Source: a virus | Lineage: Duplodnaviria; Caudoviricetes | Direction: 5' to 3' (one strand) | Virus record (IMG/VR): IMGVR_UViG_3300047157_000186 | Length of the DNA stretch: 64,000 bases | In this document: positions 3,352 to 51,512 of the stretch, piece after piece | Position numbering within the stretch: the first letter of the stretch is position 1 | How the letters are laid out: the number at the start of each line of letters is the position of its first letter | The notes under the pieces: model-generated | The model's input: only the letters and a program-made list of their open reading frames with translations | Told to the model about the DNA's origin: nothing | The model's database searches: none | Program-made: the position numbers and the translations under genes

Positions 3352-3839
3352 ATGTCAATAAAAAATCTTAAACCTACTAATAATTCAGGCTTTGTACAAG
3401 GATATTTTAATCCAAAAAATCCAGAAAAGTATATTGGCCCAACCCTATTATTTATAGATCATCATGGGAAAGAAAGTTTATGATTATGTGTGATACAAGA
3501 GATAGACGTTATTAAAGTGGTCAAGTGAGCCTGTAGAGATTAAGTATATTTGGTCTTTTGATAAAAGAGAACATAAGTATTATCCAGACTTCTATATGAA
3601 AACTAAGAAGTATTGATGAGGGTGTTGAAACGTATAAAGAGTTTTTGGTTGAAATAAAACCAGAAGCTCAGATTAAAAAACCACCGCCTCCTAAAAAAAT
3701 AGCAAAAAGGCATTAAATTCATATAAGTTTTTAGCAGAACAGTATGTTAAGAACAGAGATAAATATAAGTATGCACAAGCATGGTGTGAAAGTCGTAGGT
3801 TGGAGATTTATTGTGTTAACAGAAAAATCACTTAAATAA
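3352..3839 (+). CDS. gp4: Head completion nuclease (T4 gp4 / TnsA-like), fragmented by indels
   Basis: QGYFNPKNPEKYIG, IIYRSSW, KWSSEPVEIKY, HKYYPDFY and LVEIKP recoverable across frames. Confidence 0.8.
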
Positions 3840-4497: not shown

Positions 4498-6100
4498 ATG
4501 GCAGGATTTACGATAAAAGAAACGGACCACTTAGTTCTAATCACAAGACCATTTAGCCTTTCAAATGCTTTGAAAACGCTAAGTTCTTTTGGTATGCGTT
4601 ATGATGATATGGTACTTAGACAATCTCAAGCAATTGGTCCAATGGAAGACCAGTTCGGTTATAGAGAGATGAACCCGTTTGGTGTTGACAATGATGATAT
4701 TTATGGTGCATTTGCTGCACTATCTATGGCAGATATTAATATGAAGAAGAACGTACCGTTCTTTGATATTGATTATGAAGGTAAAAGAGATGAACTTAGA
4801 AGGTTCTCATTAAACGATGAAGTTGAAGATATTCTAGATATTCTTTGTGATGAAGCAATTGTATATGATGAAAAAAACTTCTTTGTTACAACCAGAATTA
4901 TAGGACTTGATGTATCAGATGATGTTAATAAAGACCTTAACAAATACTTTAGACAAATCTATCACTATTTTGGTTTTAATGGTGAACAATCAGCATGGTA
5001 CTTCTTTAGAAAAGTTCTTAGTTGATGGTTACTTATCATTTGAAATAATTTATTCCCCAGACCAAAAAGAAATTATAGGTTTTAAAGAATAGATCCAATT
5101 ACTCTTAATGCCAGGTTACAATAAAGATGATGGTAAGAAAGTATGGGTACAATATAAAGACGATCCAGTAAAAGAAAGAGTATTATATGATTCTCAAGTC
5201 ATTTACATTTCTTATTCTTCTACTTTCAACTGCATCAAGAGTTCAGTTATGTTGAGAGATTAATTAGATCATTTAACTTACTTAAGAATTATGGAACACA
5301 CCAGAGTAATCTGGGCAGTGACCAATGCTTCATTTAGAATGAAGTTTATTATTCCTGTAGGTGGTAAATCTAAAACTAGAGCAAAACAATCTTTGGCACA
5401 GTTAATGAATAACTATAAAGAAGTCTGTAGATTTGATTGGGAATCAGGTACATTAGAAACAGACGGTAAACCAATGTTACAATTTAGTAAAGAATATTGG
5501 TTACCTTCTAAAGATGGTGAAACACCAGAAATTGAAACTCTTAAATAGTGAAGGACCAGATCTTTCAGATACAGAAGCACTTAAATACTTCTCAGATAAA
5601 TTAAAACATGTTTCTAAAATTCCTTACAATAGATTCTTATATGAAGATGGATGGTGGAGATTTGCAACTTAGCTGCTGATGGTATGGTTAGAGATGAGAT
5701 TAAGTTTGGTAAGTTTATCAAACGATTAAGATCTAGTATTCCAAGAAATTTTAGTAAAACCCTTTATTTATTCAAATGTGTCTTAAATACCCTGAGTTTA
5801 CTGACGATCCTCAGTTTAAAACTCAAGTAGCTTTAAGGTTTAATGAAGAGAATGTGTTTGCTGAATTAAAAGACAAGAAATAATGCAAAAAGATTAGACT
5901 TTATTGGTACTATGAGAGATTCGTTAATGACAACTAATCAAGAGACTATGGAAGAAGAATACTATTTCGATCAAGAATACTTAGTTAAAAAATATCTTAA
6001 ACTGAGTGATGATGAAATTAGAGCAAATGAAGCCTTTAAATCTAAACTGGCAAAGAAGTCGGCTGAAGAACCAGAGGCTGAAGATCCATTCGCAATGTAA
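4498..6100 (+). CDS. gp20: Portal protein (T4 gp20-like), fragmented by multiple indels
   Basis: EVEDILDILCDEAIVYD, WYFFRKFLVDGYLSFEIIY, LRIMEHTRVIWAVTNASFRMKFIIPVG, EYWLPSKDGETPEIETL. Confidence 0.9.
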
Positions 6101-6128
6101 AACAATGATTAAAAAAGATATATAAAAC

Positions 6129-6467
6129 ATGAAAATTATCAAAACATTTAATGACTTCATATCTGAAGATGCTCTTAGAGCTGGGGAAGATTCTAAAGTC
6201 ATAATCGACGATCTAAAGTTAGATTCTGGTCCTGAAATTAAATCTGCTGAAATTCTAGGAGCTATTACAGCAGCTTTAACTGATGAAGAATTTAAGCAGT
6301 ATTTTTATGAAACATATAGCGAAGCTGCCTTTGCAGAAGGTGAAATGGATATTCTAGTAGGCTATTATTTAGATAAATCGGCAGAAGAAGCTGAAGCTGA
6401 AAAGGAAGCTGAAAAGGAAGAAGAAGGTGGTGAAGAAGACAGCGATGACCCGCTTGCTGGAATGTAA
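6129..6467 (+). CDS. Small acidic prohead core / internal head protein
   Basis: Lies between portal and protease; N-terminus MKIIKTFNDFISE resembles the T4 capsid-targeting sequence; late promoter at 6117. Confidence 0.6.
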   Translation: MKIIKTFNDFISEDALRAGEDSKVIIDDLKLDSGPEIKSAEILGAITAALTDEEFKQYFYETYSEAAFAEGEMDILVGYYLDKSAEEAEAEKEAEKEEEGGEEDSDDPLAGM

Positions 6468-6523
6468 TAAGATATTTCAATAATAAAGTATGATATATAT
6501 TAAAAATACAAAAATAAAATATT

Positions 6524-8671
6524 ATGAATAATAATAACGATTTATTGATCGTCGAGATGTCGTCATCTGCATTGAGTGTTACTCCATCGGATAATAAAGA
6601 CTACATTCTGGAAGGTGTTTTTGGTCAAATTGATCAAAAAAATAAAAATAACCGTATTTACACAGAATCCGAATATGTTCCTCAAATAGAAGCATTACAA
6701 CAAAAAATCGGAGCTAGTAAATTACTGGGTGAATTAGATCACCCTGCACAATTTGATATTTCTTTAAAGAATGTATCTCACATTATTGAAGAATTAACTT
6801 ATGACAAAGATTCTAAAGAAGTCAGAGGACGTATTAAATTATTAGATACAGATGCTGGTCGTCAAGCTAAAGCCTTAGTAGACGCTGGTGTACCTTTACA
6901 GATTTCATCTAGAGCTGCAGGTGCAGTTGAATCTAATGGACAAGTAAAAATTAAGCAATTGTTTACATACGATTTAGTAGCTGACCCTGGTTTTGAAAAC
7001 GCAGAGTTAAAGAGAGTTAATGAATCTTATGGTTTTTCAAACGACACAGGACTTTATATATATGAAGTTGGTGAAGCTAATTTAACTGAAAATATTGAAA
7101 ATAAAACTACAAACACACAAATAAAAGAAAATAAAAACATGGCAGAATTTGTAAAATCTGAGGATTTCAATAAGTACTCTGAGTATTTAGCGAATGAGAT
7201 CAAGACACTAAAAGAGTCTATTGAAGCTAAAGACGAAGCAGCTTCAGGCGAAAACACAGTAGAAAATCTAACACAACACAATAACCACATTGTAGAATCA
7301 GTTAATGATTTAACAGAATATGTAGGGTATATTGCTGAACAATTAGATGGTTCTATTCAGTATACGGAACATGTAGCTGAAAAAACAGATCAATCTATTT
7401 CTTATTCAGAAAGTATTGCTGAAAAACTAGATCAAGGTATTTCTTATACTGAGCATTTAGCAGAATCAGTATCTAAAGTTAAAGATTTCGCTAATTATTT
7501 AGCAGAAGCACATAACGAAGGTGCTGAATCAAACAACACTTTATTAGAATACGTTGAATACTTAAAAGAAAACTTACAATCTGTCTCTGAATACGCAGAA
7601 TACATTGCTGAATCTTTAAACGAAACTGTTGAAGAAGTTGAAGTTAATGTTGAAGCAGAAGAAGATAAAGAAGAAGATGTAGAAGCAGCTGATAACGTTG
7701 AAGGTGAAGAAGTTGCAAAAGAAGCAGGCGAAGATAACGAAGAAGTTACTGAAGAGACTGAAGAAGTTGAAGAGACTGAAGAAGTTGAAGAAGTTGAAGA
7801 GACTGAAGAAGTTACTGAAGAAGAAGATCCTGCAAAAGATAAAGACGAAGCTGAAGACACAGACGAAATAGAAAACATCGGTGATAATTCAGAAGAAGGT
7901 GCAGTTGCTGCAGATAGCGATGAAGCTGGAAAAGAAGTTGAAGAAATTGAAGACGAAGAAGTTGAAGCTGGAGATAATTCAGAAGAAGGCGACGTTGGAG
8001 GTGAAGAAGTTGCTAAAGAAGGTGACGAAGACGCTGACGATGCTGTAACATCAGATTCTGAAATCGAAGATGAAACTGAAGAAGCTGATGCTGGTGAAGG
8101 TGAAGAAGAAGCTGAAGGTGAAGATGGAGCACACGATCCATTAGAAGCTTATAAAGCAGATATCTCTTCTAAATTAGACGCACTAGTAGAAAATGCAACT
8201 AAAAAAGAAAATGAAAATCCTTCATTCTTTAAAGTAGTATCATCTGCAACTAGAAATAAATATAACGAATTATCAGAATCTGCTAAAACAGATGTTAGAG
8301 GAATCGTTTCTAAAAGAGGATTTATGACAGAATCAGAAATTATGTCAGTAATGAATGAAGCACAACTTATTGTTGAAAGTGCAGGAGCACAACCTACATT
8401 CATTGCACTTATGCCTTCTGAATATAAAGAAGCATGGGCTAATCTATCTGAATCTAAACAAAATAATATCATCGCACAATCTAAATACCACACATTGAAC
8501 ACAGAATATCAAGTTGCTAATTTCTGGCAAACTAGAGACTTAAGAGACACTAAAGTGGAATTAGAAAAAGTTGCAATGGTAACTGAAGCTAAGAAAGAAG
8601 AAACTAAACCAACATTAGGATATGATGTATCAGGTATGGCAGATGCTTTCAAACAAAGGTTCAATAAGTAA
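6524..8671 (+). CDS. gp21: Prohead protease (gp21-like) fused to a scaffold/core domain (gp22-like)
   Basis: LEGVFGQIDQKNKNNRIY, LLGELDHP, ISSRAAG, YDLVADPGF; followed by 14-aa helical repeats and a long acidic tract. Confidence 0.9.
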   Translation: MNNNNDLLIVEMSSSALSVTPSDNKDYILEGVFGQIDQKNKNNRIYTESEYVPQIEALQQKIGASKLLGELDHPAQFDISLKNVSHIIEELTYDKDSKEVRGRIKLLDTDAGRQAKALVDAGVPLQISSRAAGAVESNGQVKIKQLFTYDLVADPGFENAELKRVNESYGFSNDTGLYIYEVGEANLTENIENKTTNTQIKENKNMAEFVKSEDFNKYSEYLANEIKTLKESIEAKDEAASGENTVENLTQHNNHIVESVNDLTEYVGYIAEQLDGSIQYTEHVAEKTDQSISYSESIAEKLDQGISYTEHLAESVSKVKDFANYLAEAHNEGAESNNTLLEYVEYLKENLQSVSEYAEYIAESLNETVEEVEVNVEAEEDKEEDVEAADNVEGEEVAKEAGEDNEEVTEETEEVEETEEVEEVEETEEVTEEEDPAKDKDEAEDTDEIENIGDNSEEGAVAADSDEAGKEVEEIEDEEVEAGDNSEEGDVGGEEVAKEGDEDADDAVTSDSEIEDETEEADAGEGEEEAEGEDGAHDPLEAYKADISSKLDALVENATKKENENPSFFKVVSSATRNKYNELSESAKTDVRGIVSKRGFMTESEIMSVMNEAQLIVESAGAQPTFIALMPSEYKEAWANLSESKQNNIIAQSKYHTLNTEYQVANFWQTRDLRDTKVELEKVAMVTEAKKEETKPTLGYDVSGMADAFKQRFNK
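7740..7826 (+). repeat. Tandem GAAGAAGTT/GAAGAGACT repeats encoding EEV/EET in the scaffold linker
   Basis: EEVTEETEEVEETEEVEEVEETEEVTEEE. Confidence 0.85.
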
Positions 8672-35237: not shown

Positions 35238-35314
35238 AGTCAAGTATCTCCTCAAGCTTATACCTTGTAGAAAGAGTAATTGGTTACATGAGAGTTCAAA
35301 TCTCTCCTTGACTA
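35238..35314 (+). ncRNA. Non-canonical tRNA-like RNA: perfect acceptor and T-arm, rearranged D/anticodon region
   Basis: AGTCAAG/CTTGACT plus discriminator A, GAGAG-TTCAAAT-CTCTC T-arm, internal CAAG-CTTATAC-CTTG and GTAA-TTGG-TTAC hairpins. Confidence 0.75.
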
Positions 35315-49781: not shown

Positions 49782-49988
49782 ATGGAAGGATATTATATAA
49801 GTGATGAGTATAGAACTAATTCAAAAAGTCTTGTTCCAGGAGGATGGGACGTTGAAGTAGAATATAAAACTCTAGAAAAGAGAATTTATTCCAATATTAA
49901 AAACACAGAAGCATACGCTAATCATATATTAGCATCTGATGAAAATGTAAAATCAGTAACAGTAATCGGAGAAAGTAAAAAAGATTAA
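49782..49988 (+). CDS. Small hypothetical protein
   Basis: 68 aa. Confidence 0.55.
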   Translation: MEGYYISDEYRTNSKSLVPGGWDVEVEYKTLEKRIYSNIKNTEAYANHILASDENVKSVTVIGESKKD

Positions 49989-50050
49989 AAAAAGTTGAAA
50001 CAAATCAATTTAGCAGAGTATAACAGGTATAAATTTAAAAAACAAATATT

Positions 50051-50227
50051 ATGACAGAATTATTAAATCAAATCCAAGAAGAATTGACTAACATCCAAGA
50101 GGATGCAGCAAAATTCTCAGAAAAAGGAAACAAAGCAGCAGGTACAAGAGTACGTAAGGCTATGCAAGTAATCAAAGGATTAGCACAAGACGTAAGAGTT
50201 GCAGTAAGTGCAGCAAACAAAGCATAG
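50051..50227 (+). CDS. Histone H1-like (Hc1-family) protein of the Bacteroidota type (58 aa)
   Basis: EKGNKAAGTRVRKAMQ signature; middle promoter at 49997; below the ORF-track cutoff. Confidence 0.8.
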   Translation: MTELLNQIQEELTNIQEDAAKFSEKGNKAAGTRVRKAMQVIKGLAQDVRVAVSAANKA

Positions 50228-50257
50228 TACCAAATATTAATTGGTATATATAAAGTA

Positions 50258-50682
50258 CCAAGGAAACGTTCTTTAAAATATTGGAAGGCACATTAGATAT
50301 TGATCATTGATAATGTGAGTGTATTGCCGAAAAAATCCTGACGGAAAGAGGGATTAAGGCACACTAGACATCGGACAAGTTCCGGCTTAGTTGCAAAAGT
50401 GCGTAACTAAGACTCGACAGAGTAGAAGGTGGTAGATCGGGAAAGATATCTAAACTAATCTTTCTAAGAGCATTGCAAGTACCCGAGAGGAAGCCTTGCC
50501 TAAGTGACTGAACATCCTGTCTTATTAGGGGATAAAGTACAATCAAAGCCGTTGTGGCACTACAACGAGATTTAACCATCTTGAGTAGAACTTGAAATAA
50601 TAGTAAAGTTGATTGGTATGCAGTAATCAACACAATAAGTCGATCTTCTAAGGCTAGTATACCTTAGTACACGATCCTTCCT
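50258..50682 (+). ncRNA. Large (about 425 nt) highly structured ncRNA upstream of tRNA-Ala; GOLLD/ROOL-like context
   Basis: At least 8 hairpins including GNRA tetraloops, long-range GGTGGT/ACCATC pairing, 5'/3' AAGGA/TCCTT pairing, GC-richer than the genome, no convincing ORF. Confidence 0.75.
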
Positions 50683-50691
50683 TTTTTTATT

Positions 50692-50799
<108 letters not shown>

Positions 50800-50806
50800 C
50801 GAAATT

Positions 50807-50831
50807 AGCCTCTCAAACGAGAGGCTTTTTT
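50807..50831 (+). terminator. Rho-independent terminator after tRNA-Ala
   Basis: AGCCTCTC-AAAC-GAGAGGCT plus T run. Confidence 0.85.
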
Positions 50832-50860
50832 ATGAAATAAAACCATGATAAATATATTAT

Positions 50861-50922
50861 TGGAGCAGGTTCTATATCTAACCACTGTTATGGGCCCCCG
50901 TCCTGTGGTAGAATCTGTTCCA
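50861..50922 (+). ncRNA. Long stem-loop upstream of a methyltransferase gene
   Basis: 14-bp stem TGGAGCAGGTTCTA/TAGAATCTGTTCCA with two G-U pairs, inner CCAC/GTGG, followed by T6. Confidence 0.5.
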
Positions 50923-50939
50923 TTTTTTAACTTTAAACA

Positions 50940-51512
50940 ATGAGTAAATATCTAAAATATTACAAAGACATTTTTGAAGGTAAACCATTTTTAAGAAATG
51001 GTAAAATGGTCACGTTAAAAGAAAAAACAGTTTTTGATGGGGGCGGAATTCAAAAGATATATGGCGAATTAGAATATGAATTAGATAAAAGAGGTAGCGG
51101 TACTATCTTAGATTTTGGATCTGGAACTGGAGTACATTGGACAAAAAAAGTGCCAATTCCAGGAGTTAAAGAACGTAAAACTGCTAGTGAACACTTTGGT
51201 TCTAGATTAAGAGGATTTTATAGATATGATCCTGCCCACCCAGAATATTGTAAAAAACCAACAGGAACATTCGATATTATAATGTGTACAGAAGTTTTAG
51301 AACATGTGCCATTAGAAGAGTTACCGGAATTATTATCTGAAATGAAATCTTATTTAGCAGATGACGGTGTAGTTATATTCACCATTCCAAAGGGATTATC
51401 AAGTAATGCATTTCCAGATGGTAAAAATCTACATATTACATTAATGGAAACTAAAGAATGGAACAAAATGTTTGATCAATATTTCGATGATCATATATTA
51501 ATTCACCATTAG
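50940..51512 (+). CDS. Class I SAM-dependent methyltransferase
   Basis: ILDFGSG, FDIIMCTEVLEHVP, NLHIT. Confidence 0.85.
   Translation: MSKYLKYYKDIFEGKPFLRNGKMVTLKEKTVFDGGGIQKIYGELEYELDKRGSGTILDFGSGTGVHWTKKVPIPGVKERKTASEHFGSRLRGFYRYDPAHPEYCKKPTGTFDIIMCTEVLEHVPLEELPELLSEMKSYLADDGVVIFTIPKGLSSNAFPDGKNLHITLMETKEWNKMFDQYFDDHILIHH

What the first reader, a model, noticed from the sequence alone, without database searches (positions are those of the whole stretch)
50258..50682. Ornate ncRNA of about 425 nt beside tRNA-Ala
Seen in sequence: a GC-enriched region without a convincing ORF is densely paired. Stems: CACATTA/TAATGTG (50289/50311), CTTAGTT/AACTAAG (50386/50405), ACTC-GACA-GAGT (50412), GCAAG/CTTGC enclosing CC-GAGA-GG (50475-50499), CGTTGT/ACAACG (50550/50562), GTTGATT/AATCAAC (50608/50625), CTAAGG/CCTTAG (50648/50662). 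There is long-range GGTGGT/ACCATC pairing (50428/50575) and end pairing AAGGA/TCCTT. A late-like GGTATATATAAA box precedes it and a terminator follows. Established: GOLLD and ROOL are large phage ncRNAs of unknown function often found next to tRNAs. It may be a short member of those families or a new class.
Basis: partly seen in the sequence, partly recalled or inferred. Interest (0 to 1): 0.85.

Follow-up and report, generated by a model that had tools for sequence, protein, structure and literature searches.

The report
Double-module manA-like phage RNA
The flagged stretch is a real, very abundant, roughly 400-base folded RNA of uncultured marine giant phages. It is built from two copies of the "manA" RNA module, which a 2026 preprint reports to self-assemble into RNA-only cages. 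It behaves as a gene of its own beside tRNA-Ala, but what it does for the phage is unknown.

Summary
The region 50283-50681 (+) is a genuine structured RNA.

- **Family.** Homologues were found in 48 loci. 28 distinct sequences, 71-99% identical, were aligned.
- **Structure.** A curated 89-pair structure is 99.8% base-paired, and 38 pairs show compensatory changes. Sliding the partners gives at most 4 such pairs.
- **Expression.** Marine metatranscriptome contigs over the RNA are about 30-90 times deeper than over the upstream Hc1 gene. They are up to about 4000 times deeper than over the downstream methyltransferase gene.
- **Identity.** It is not GOLLD or ROOL. The 3' half matches Rfam manA below threshold (18-33 bits against 55.2) in every member tested. 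Covariance models of the 5' and 3' halves each find the other half, other manA-like phage RNAs and the canonical P-SSM2 manA, all in register. The RNA is therefore a tandem duplication of the manA module (core hairpin plus four-way junction). The two modules are tied together by three nested long-range helices and one pseudoknot.
Five of eight are confirmed and three are not conserved.
- **Gene context.** It always follows a phage Hc1 histone-like gene and lies near, or fused to, tRNA-Ala.
- **Function.** Most likely it is a self-assembling architectural RNA. This is inferred, not shown.
- **Earlier notes.** This scan found the same family on other DNA (e1-5362657, e1-5362648) and read it the same way.

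The parts
50051..50227 (+). Hc1 histone H1-like gene (58 aa), always directly upstream of the RNA in family members
   Evidence: Pfam PF07432, E 6e-21. An Hc1 homologue lies directly upstream in every RNA-bearing locus that extends far enough.
50243..50254 (+). Promoter-like box GGTATATATAAA, with the ATATATAA core at 50246
   Evidence: ATATATAA occurs 17 times on + and once on - in the window, mostly just upstream of ORFs including the major capsid gene. Not shown to be a promoter. A tRNA occupies this place in the L214 and L185 groups.
50262..50282 (+). Conserved 5' leader (GUUCUUUAANAUAUUG is nearly invariant). It can form a small hairpin or pair with GGAAGG as an alternative to P1.
   Evidence: Invariant columns in A2. 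Alternative pairing 9-13/26-30 proposed by RNAalifold, with one-sided changes only.
50283..50681 (+). Body of the RNA (399 nt), closed by P1 GGAAGG (50283-88) with CCUUCC (50676-81)
   Evidence: P1 is kept in all 28 sequences in five covarying forms. The whole-structure count is 99.8% paired with 38 covarying pairs. Metatranscriptome contig depth is 66,000-184,000 here in run X3, against 41-2,000 in the flanks.
50289..50317 (+). Hairpin Pa. Its apical loop carries an invariant self-complementary GAUC (50302-05), which is UGAUCA (50301-06) in most members.
   Evidence: 3 covarying pairs. GAUC is invariant in 28/28 while the stem beneath it changes sequence and length.
50318..50433 (+). 5' manA-like module. 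Core hairpin Pb (50326-28/50358-60 and 50334-39/50350-55), then a four-way junction closed by CACU/GGUG (50362-65/50428-31) holding Pc, Pd and Pe (GNRA loop GACA).
   Evidence: Helix coordinates and covariation. The 3'-module model R1 hits 50320-50434 over its full length in register (8.3 bits, E 0.05). The 5'-module model R2 hits other manA-like RNAs at 18-26 bits and the P-SSM2 manA in place.
50319..50323 (+). Long-range helix LR1, 5' strand GUGUA, pairing with UACAC at 50668-72
   Evidence: 100% paired in 28 sequences but with one-sided changes only, so it is compatible but not proven.
50343..50349 (+). Pseudoknot, 5' strand: the Pb loop GGAAAGA pairs with UCUUUCU at 50459-65. That partner is also the 3' strand of hairpin Pg.
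   Evidence: 99% paired, 23 cells changed on both sides (for example CGUGAGA/UUUCACG), slid controls 0. Hairpin Pg also covaries, so the two pairings compete.
50434..50439 (+). Long-range helix LR2, 5' strand AGAUCG, pairing with CGAUCU at 50641-46. It encloses Pg, Ph and the 3' module.
   Evidence: 100% paired, 3 covarying pairs.
50440..50465 (+). Hairpin Pg (GGAAAGAU/AUCUUUCU) with a UAAAC-containing loop
   Evidence: Forms in all 28 sequences with different stem sequences.
50475..50499 (+). Hairpin Ph (GCAAG/CUUGC) capped by CC-GAGA-GG, a GNRA loop (GAGA or GAAA)
   Evidence: It aligns with P1 of the Rfam manA model.
50501..50618 (+). 3' manA-like module. Core hairpin (GUGACUGAA...GGGGAUAAAGUAC), then a four-way junction closed by CAAUCAA/UUGAUUG (50540-46/50609-15) holding Pk, Pl and Pm.
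   Evidence: Rfam RF01745 scores 32.7 bits, E 1.9e-6, over the full model 1-192 at 50484-50672. The junction helix has 5 covarying pairs. R2 hits 50503-50617 in register. R1 hits the canonical P-SSM2 manA in register.
50648..50667 (+). 3' hairpin P3h, CUAAGG/CCUUAG, with a conserved GUAUA loop
   Evidence: 5 of 6 pairs covary, for example CUAGAG/CUCUAG and CCAGAA/UUCUGG.
50692..50725 (+). Intrinsic terminator: 12-bp hairpin followed by U8
   Evidence: -14.2 kcal/mol, z = -6.4. Relatives carry unrelated hairpins at the same place.
50726..50800 (+). tRNA-Ala (UGC), always in the same small module as the RNA
   Evidence: ARAGORN and Rfam. Its position varies: just after the RNA, 0.15-3.9 kb after it, or between Hc1 and the RNA.

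Best explanation
This is a stand-alone gene for an abundant, stable RNA of about 400 nt, carried by uncultured marine jumbo T4-like phages. The genomes are about 250 kb and the hosts are probably Flavobacteriales.

Shown:
- The RNA folds into two tandem manA-type modules, each a 'core' internal-loop hairpin followed by a four-way junction.
- The modules are wrapped by three nested long-range helices (P1, LR1, LR2).
- A pseudoknot cross-links the loop of the first core to the 3' strand of hairpin Pg.
- The RNA displays an invariant self-complementary GAUC loop and two GNRA tetraloops.

Inferred on expression: it is made either from its own ATATATAA-type phage promoter or by processing of an Hc1/tRNA-Ala co-transcript. 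It ends at P1 plus a U-tract and a terminator.

Inferred on mechanism: like the single-module manA RNAs that form 8-, 10- and 60-subunit cages in vitro, it works as a self-assembling architectural RNA. Each monomer supplies a covalently linked pair of manA modules. Copies would join through the palindromic GAUC kissing loop, GNRA-receptor contacts, and possibly a swap of the Pb-loop/Pg pairing between molecules. The assembly would act late in infection as a scaffold or container, not as a cis-regulator. Its cargo or target is unknown.
For: Reality and structure:
- 48 loci carry it at nhmmer E 1e-78 to 1e-159.
- On 28 distinct sequences, 89 pairs are 99.8% paired and 38 pairs (203 cells) show compensatory change. 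No shuffle out of 500 reaches this, and slid controls give at most 4 pairs.
- P1 covaries in five forms. The pseudoknot is supported.

Expression:
- 13 or more RNA runs from many studies hold it.
- Contig depth over the RNA is 66,000-184,000 in run X3, against 2,028 for Hc1 and 41 for the methyltransferase. In run X2 it is 4,800-6,800 against 5-200.

Stand-alone status:
- Non-homologous terminator hairpins follow it in different lineages.
- What follows it varies: tRNA-Ala then a methyltransferase, a 1041-aa ORF, a 61-aa ORF, or tRNAs.

Likeness to manA:
- Rfam RF01745 matches over its full length below threshold in all members tested.
- Models R1 and R2 hit each other's module, other manA-like RNAs and the canonical P-SSM2 manA, all in register.

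Self-assembly precedent:
- manA RNAs form decamers and a T=1 60-mer through kissing loops and a GNRA loop-receptor contact (preprint 10.64898/2026.07.01.735769).
- GAUC is invariant in an apical loop above a covarying stem.
Against: - No experiment or computation here shows oligomerisation. No loop-loop covariation that would prove an intermolecular contact was found.
- The match to manA is below Rfam's threshold. The module-to-module hits are weak (7-10 bits, E 0.03-0.2 in small searches).
- The cage result is a preprint and in vitro only, and a biological role for manA cages is unknown.
- Related phages carry Hc1 and tRNA-Ala without the RNA, or with only a 50-nt remnant, so the RNA is dispensable for some lineages.
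- The two competing, both-covarying pairings (Pg hairpin against pseudoknot) could equally indicate an intramolecular switch.
- The contig evidence cannot fix the RNA's ends or its strand.
Confidence: 0.45

Rival explanations
1. tRNA-operon accessory RNA. It is a decoy, sponge or chaperone tied to tRNA biology, for example diverting host tRNA-targeting nucleases or processing enzymes, or stabilising phage tRNAs. It would be released from tRNA co-transcripts by RNase P/Z.
For: tRNA-Ala is always in the module. It is fused 3 nt upstream of the RNA in the L214 and L185 groups, and two tRNAs follow directly in L227. Other manA-like RNAs sit inside phage tRNA islands.
Against: No tRNA-like element was detected inside the RNA. 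Linkage to tRNAs could simply reflect shared strong promoters and processing. No target is identified.
Confidence: 0.17
2. Partner of the phage Hc1 histone-like protein. The polyanionic RNA would bind, buffer or time the action of the very basic Hc1 made from the gene just upstream, as an RNP or decoy.
For: Every RNA-bearing locus that extends upstream has Hc1 (72-100% aa identity) directly upstream. Hc1 is itself highly represented in metatranscriptomes.
Against: Related phages have Hc1 with no RNA downstream (L239-L242) or only a remnant (L243). Other manA-like RNAs have no Hc1 nearby. The synteny is within one fairly narrow clade. No binding test was possible.
Confidence: 0.1
3. Intramolecular conformational switch or riboswitch. 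The two mutually exclusive, both-conserved pairings of UCUUUCU (with the Pg 5' strand or with the Pb loop) toggle in response to a ligand or to temperature. The toggle controls termination or read-through into tRNA-Ala and downstream genes. This matches Rfam's 'cis-reg' label for manA.
For: Both pairings covary. A U-tract follows P1. manA was proposed as a riboswitch candidate (PMC2864571).
Against: What lies downstream is not conserved. A separate strong terminator follows in several lineages. The RNA accumulates far above its neighbours, which is unlike a leader. No ligand is known for manA.
Confidence: 0.08
4. Member of GOLLD or ROOL, or a protein-coding region (the minus-strand 89-aa ORF).
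For: A minus-strand ORF at 50364-50633 exists.
Against: No GOLLD or ROOL match at E up to 10. The ORF length varies from 50 to 135 aa with indels of 1, 2 and 4 nt. The substitutions preserve RNA pairs, not codons.
Confidence: 0.01

Closest known systems
manA RNA motif (Rfam RF01745; Weinberg et al. 2010, PMC2864571; cage structures in preprint 10.64898/2026.07.01.735769)
   Same: It shares the core internal-loop hairpin with the conserved UGAC(U/C)GAAUAA ... GAUAAGGUAC. This is followed at once by a four-way junction whose second and third arms are separated by AA. It shares a preceding hairpin with GA in the loop and a phage origin. Full-length Rfam alignment is obtained in all members tested, and reciprocal model hits land on the P-SSM2 manA.
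   Different: - It scores 18-33 bits against the 55.2-bit gathering score.
- It has two modules in one 400-nt transcript rather than one module of about 190 nt.
- The outer closing helix proposed by the Rfam alignment (CUAAG/CUUAG) is not conserved. It is replaced by LR1, LR2 and P1.
- It has an added Pa hairpin with a GAUC loop, a Pg hairpin and a pseudoknot.
- It is free-standing between a terminator and tRNA genes in Flavobacteriales-type jumbo phages. It is not in a 5' UTR of cyanophage metabolic genes, as in P-SSM2 where manA lies between regA and purL.
Single-module manA-like RNAs in phage tRNA islands (loci L196, L197, L200, L201, L202 of IMG/VR)
   Same: The same core motif, a tRNA-cluster context and sub-threshold Rfam manA scores of 27-31 bits. 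They are hit by both R1 and R2 at 13-32 bits.
   Different: They have a single module, no 5' add-on, no Hc1 neighbour and different junction arms.
GOLLD and ROOL large ornate RNAs (cryo-EM: PMC12286853)
   Same: Large, ornate, phage- or prophage-associated, often beside tRNAs, and forming RNA-only homo-oligomers.
   Different: No sequence or structure match. This RNA is about 400 nt, against about 580-800 nt, and has a different architecture.

Membership tests
manA RNA (RF01745) | Score at or above Rfam's gathering threshold (55.2 bits) | tested here: not met
   Window 32.7 bits. Relatives 18.4-32.5 bits. Positive control P-SSM2 181.6 bits.
manA RNA (RF01745) | Core hairpin flanked by the conserved UGaCUGAAUAA and UAAgGu strands, closed by a short outer helix | tested here: met
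   Present in the 3' module (50503-50540) and, in diverged form, in the 5' module (GCCGAAAAAAUCCU...GGGAUUAAGGCAC). Alignments. The outer pair covaries (264/292 CG:18 UA:10).
manA RNA (RF01745) | Four-way junction directly 3' of the core, with three hairpin arms | tested here: met
   J4b is 50540-46/50609-15 with Pk, Pl and Pm. J4a is 50362-65/50428-31 with Pc, Pd and Pe. The closing helices have 5 and 3 covarying pairs.
manA RNA (RF01745) | Outer helix of the Rfam consensus, joining the strand after P1 to the 3' tail | tested here: not met
   The CUAAG (50500)/CUUAG (50663) pairing proposed by the Rfam alignment is not kept in relatives (CCGUAAAC, CCCAAG). It also clashes with P3h, where 5 of 6 pairs covary. 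LR1 and LR2 play the analogous role.
manA RNA (RF01745) | Location in the 5' UTR of metabolic or photosynthesis genes (the basis for the cis-regulatory label) | tested here: not met
   Flanked by Hc1, a terminator and tRNA-Ala. What lies downstream varies between lineages.
manA RNA (RF01745) | Self-assembly into closed homo-oligomers (preprint 10.64898/2026.07.01.735769) | not testable with these tools
   No RNA 3D or oligomer tool is available. There is only suggestive evidence: the invariant palindromic GAUC loop and the GNRA loops.
GOLLD / ROOL | Match to the Rfam covariance models | tested here: not met
   No hit at E up to 10 in 49900-51000, and none at gathering score in the window.
RNase P RNA / tmRNA / group I intron | Match to Rfam models or ARAGORN | tested here: not met

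The most novel reading that the evidence does not exclude
The duplicated manA architecture encodes a new kind of RNA-only quaternary structure. The 'monomer' would be a built-in pseudo-dimer. The assembly would be held by a palindromic GAUC kissing loop and by a Pb-loop/Pg strand swap between molecules. It would be produced at very high copy in infected marine Flavobacteriales and would have a real in vivo role, such as sequestering tRNA, Hc1 or a host factor. That would give the first natural setting in which to ask what manA-type cages are for.
Probability: 0.3. Interest if true: 0.85.

Novelty: new variant of a known kind. Interest (0 to 1): 0.6.

Why it matters
- **An uncatalogued large RNA.** manA has been an orphan 'riboswitch candidate' since 2010, and a 2026 preprint reports that it builds RNA-only cages whose biological purpose is unknown. 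This family is an uncatalogued enlargement of that fold, twice the size, with a covariation-supported map of long-range helices and a pseudoknot.
- **Clearly not a leader.** It is a free-standing, extremely abundant transcript in ocean metatranscriptomes and is tied to tRNA operons.
- **Ready for experiment.** That makes it a good target for cryo-EM. Its apparent loss in related phages offers a natural comparison for asking what such RNAs do during infection.
- **Annotation.** It adds a large structured RNA class to marine jumbo phages that current annotation (Rfam 15) misses.

Tried and rejected
1. BLAST of the RNA against INPHARED phages and against 27 related IMG/VR records found nothing. 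The short hits at query 220-245 were coding sequence.
2. The first DNA patterns failed. CTAAGTGACTGAANNNNCTG gave only chance hits, and ACTCGACAGAGT...GTGACTGAA gave none.
3. Synteny through the methyltransferase and the CCA-adding enzyme: more distant relatives lack the RNA at that place.
4. Rfam manA search through the genome search on 27 relatives found nothing, and the controls were silent too.
5. L194 (a Peregrinibacteria MAG) and L175, L176, L178 and L180 were chance pattern matches.
6. The helix GUCG/CGAU (50639-42/50672-75), which I first drew, was dropped in favour of LR2, which stays Watson-Crick where GUCG/CGAU breaks.
7. A kissing contact between the Pl loop AACCA and GGUGGU or UUGGU is 93.5% compatible but not supported by compensation.
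8. An all-against-all covariation scan found no further convincing loop-loop pairing beyond the pseudoknot.
9. RNA ends could not be fixed, because only Logan contigs were available and no raw reads. One adapter junction at 50677 in run X1 may be a fragment end.
10. No literature on a double manA RNA was found.

Full report
**Observation.** The stretch lies between a 58-aa Hc1 histone-like gene (50051-50227; Pfam PF07432) and tRNA-Ala(UGC) (50726-50800). It has no + strand ORF of note. Its GC content is 0.40, against 0.32 for the window. It folds better than shuffles (z = -3.3). Rfam at gathering thresholds finds only tRNAs in the window. At relaxed thresholds the only meaningful hit is manA (RF01745) at 50484-50672. 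That hit scores 32.7 bits against a 55.2-bit cut-off, with E 1.9e-6, over the full model. GOLLD, ROOL, RNase P, tmRNA and group I intron do not match.

**The phage.** The window encodes a gp23-type capsid protein and an S77 prohead protease. Its nearest relatives in the phage collection are uncultured huge phages. An identical Hc1 protein is seen on a contig of 249,819 bp. One homologue of the RNA sits on a contig binned with a Flavobacteriales MAG. All genes in the window are on the + strand.

**Finding relatives.** BLAST and the first patterns failed. A note from this scan on another genome listed shared elements, GCCGAAA and ACTC-GACA-GAGT. A pattern built from these recovered true homologues:
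- three in IMG/VR;
- thirteen in JGI/ENA metagenomes;
- one in a MAG.

All of them had Hc1 directly upstream. I therefore collected phage Hc1 homologues and their contigs. Every one of those contigs carried the RNA at full length. In all, nhmmer finds 48 loci at E 1e-78 to 1e-159. Alignment A2 holds 28 distinct sequences, 71-99% identical to one another.

**Structure.** RNAalifold on A2 gave 95 pairs, 38 of them with compensatory changes. A curated set of 89 pairs in 18 helices gave the following:
- 99.8% of cells are base-paired;
- 38 pairs (203 cells) are changed on both sides;
- none of 500 shuffles reaches this;
- sliding the partners by 1-3 columns leaves at most 4 such pairs.

The order of elements along the RNA is:
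1. P1 (50283-88/50676-81), which covaries in five forms.
2. Pa (50289-50317).
3. LR1 (50319-23/50668-72), compatible but supported by one-sided changes only.
4. Core hairpin Pb.
5. Junction helix CACU/GGUG, enclosing Pc, Pd and Pe (GNRA loop).
6. LR2 (50434-39/50641-46), with three covarying pairs.
7. Pg.
8. Ph (GNRA loop).
9. The second core hairpin.
10. Junction helix CAAUCAA/UUGAUUG, enclosing Pk, Pl and Pm.
11. P3h (50648-67).

An all-against-all scan for covarying stacks added a pseudoknot. The Pb loop GGAAAGA (50343-49) pairs with UCUUUCU (50459-65). This pairing is 99% kept, with changes such as CGUGAGA/UUUCACG and zero in the slid controls. The same UCUUUCU is the 3' strand of hairpin Pg, which also covaries. 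The two pairings therefore compete, at least in the window's sequence.

Five are confirmed.

**Two manA modules.** The 5' module (50318-50433) and the 3' module (50501-50618) are 116 and 118 nt long and share one plan. Each has a 3-bp outer helix, a GAA-rich 5' internal loop, an inner helix (A)UCCU/GGGAU, a UAAG 3' loop, ACA, a four-way junction and GGUA. The model tests were as follows.

| Model | Target | Result |
|---|---|---|
| R1 (3' module) | 5' module of the window | top hit, full length, in register, 8.3 bits, E 0.05 |
| R2 (5' module) | 3' module of the window | top hit, full length, in register, 7.1 bits, E 0.035 |
| R1 and R2 | single-module manA-like RNAs in phage tRNA islands | 13-32 bits |
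| R1 and R2 | canonical P-SSM2 manA (181.6 bits by Rfam) | best hit in that locus, at the right place and register, 10.4 and 10.7 bits |

Rfam manA also aligns over its full length, below threshold, to every family member tested. The RNA is thus a tandem duplication of a manA-type module. It is a remote relative of manA, not a member by Rfam's criterion. This agrees with the follow-up note e1-5362657 ('double-core manA-like phage RNA') on another genome, and I tested that reading independently here.

**Expression and boundaries.** Thirteen or more RNA libraries from many marine studies hold the sequence. The depths of laid contigs were as follows.

| Run | Over 50281-50635 | Comparison regions |
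|---|---|---|
| X3 | 66,000-184,000 | Hc1 2,028; upstream 144; methyltransferase 41 |
| X2 | 4,800-6,800 | flanks 5-200 |
| X1 | 360-745 | 67 and 5 |

Contigs cannot give ends or strand, and strain variants fragment them. The contrast with the flanks nevertheless argues for a very abundant, stable RNA rather than DNA carry-over.

Upstream lies GGTATATATAAA. The ATATATAA core recurs 17 times on the + strand and once on the - strand, typically just before ORFs, including the capsid gene. In the L214 and L185 lineages a tRNA-Ala occupies this place and ends 3 nt before the conserved leader. There the RNA must be cut out of a tRNA co-transcript.

Downstream, the window has a 12-bp terminator followed by U8. 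Relatives have unrelated hairpins at the same position. The minus-strand ORF is not conserved.

**Context.** Hc1 is directly upstream in all RNA-bearing loci that extend far enough. tRNA-Ala is always within the module, but on either side. Related phages carry tRNA-Ala and Hc1 with no RNA (L239-L242), and one carries only the first 50 nt or so of it (L243). The RNA is therefore an accessory element, and the Hc1 linkage may be historical. Other manA-like RNAs have no Hc1 nearby.

**Mechanism.**
- Shown: a conserved, elaborate fold; high abundance; independence from any particular downstream gene.
- Taken from the literature: manA RNAs form octamers, decamers and a 60-subunit T=1 cage in vitro, through kissing loops and a GNRA loop-receptor contact (preprint 10.64898/2026.07.01.735769).
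- Inferred: this double-module RNA also self-assembles. The candidate contacts are the invariant palindromic GAUC apical loop of Pa, the two GNRA loops, and an exchange of the Pb-loop/Pg pairing between molecules.

I put self-assembly as the working mechanism at about 0.45. The rivals are a tRNA-related decoy or processing partner, an Hc1 partner, and an intramolecular switch.

**Novelty.** The family is not in Rfam 15 at curated thresholds, and no paper on a duplicated manA RNA was found. It is a new variant of a known kind. This scan had already met the same family on other DNA (e1-5362648, e1-5362657).

Noticed in passing
window, 17 sites on the + strand (e.g. 544, 4470, 8683, 10244, 16233, 43259, 50246): The motif (G)ATATATAA is strongly strand-biased: 17-19 copies on +, 0-1 on -. 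It sits just upstream of many ORFs, including the capsid gene. It is probably this phage's own (late?) promoter element.
   Followed up: partly
window 50230-50262; L174 10197-10225: The promoter-like box lies inside an inverted repeat (TTGGTA...TACCAA). In the L174 group the repeat is kept with a compensating insertion (GGTTA...TAACC). A third copy, TACCAA, lies just after the Hc1 stop. This could be an RNA hairpin in an Hc1 read-through transcript or a protein-binding palindrome.
   Followed up: no
L243:2706-2756: One related phage keeps only the 5' leader, the P1 5' strand and most of hairpin Pa after Hc1, and then an ORF begins. This is a deletion remnant of the RNA.
   Followed up: partly
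L239-L242 (e.g. L239:2368-2677): Related contigs carry tRNA-Ala(UGC) directly upstream of Hc1 with no RNA. The tRNA-Ala/Hc1 pairing therefore exists without the RNA.
   Followed up: partly
window 35238-35314: A weak tRNA-family hit (31.3 bits, just over threshold) sits right after tRNA-Lys, and ARAGORN does not call it.
   Followed up: no
L133:12753-12980: A group I intron (103 bits) in a related IMG/VR jumbo-phage contig.
   Followed up: no
L196, L197, L200, L201, L202: Single-module manA-like RNAs (Rfam 27-31 bits, below threshold) are embedded in large tRNA islands of other IMG/VR phages. L201 also has a weak tmRNA-like hit at 3669-3740.
   Followed up: partly
window 50677 (run X1): A metatranscriptome contig ends at 50677 and runs straight into Illumina adapter sequence. 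That position is inside the P1 3' strand. It may be a processed 3' end or only a fragment end.
   Followed up: no
L203:2130-2300: In the L203 group a second copy of the TGATATATAA...GTACCAA box and a conserved spacer of about 60 nt precede tRNA-Ala downstream of the RNA. The tRNA there seems to have its own copy of the same promoter-like element.
   Followed up: no
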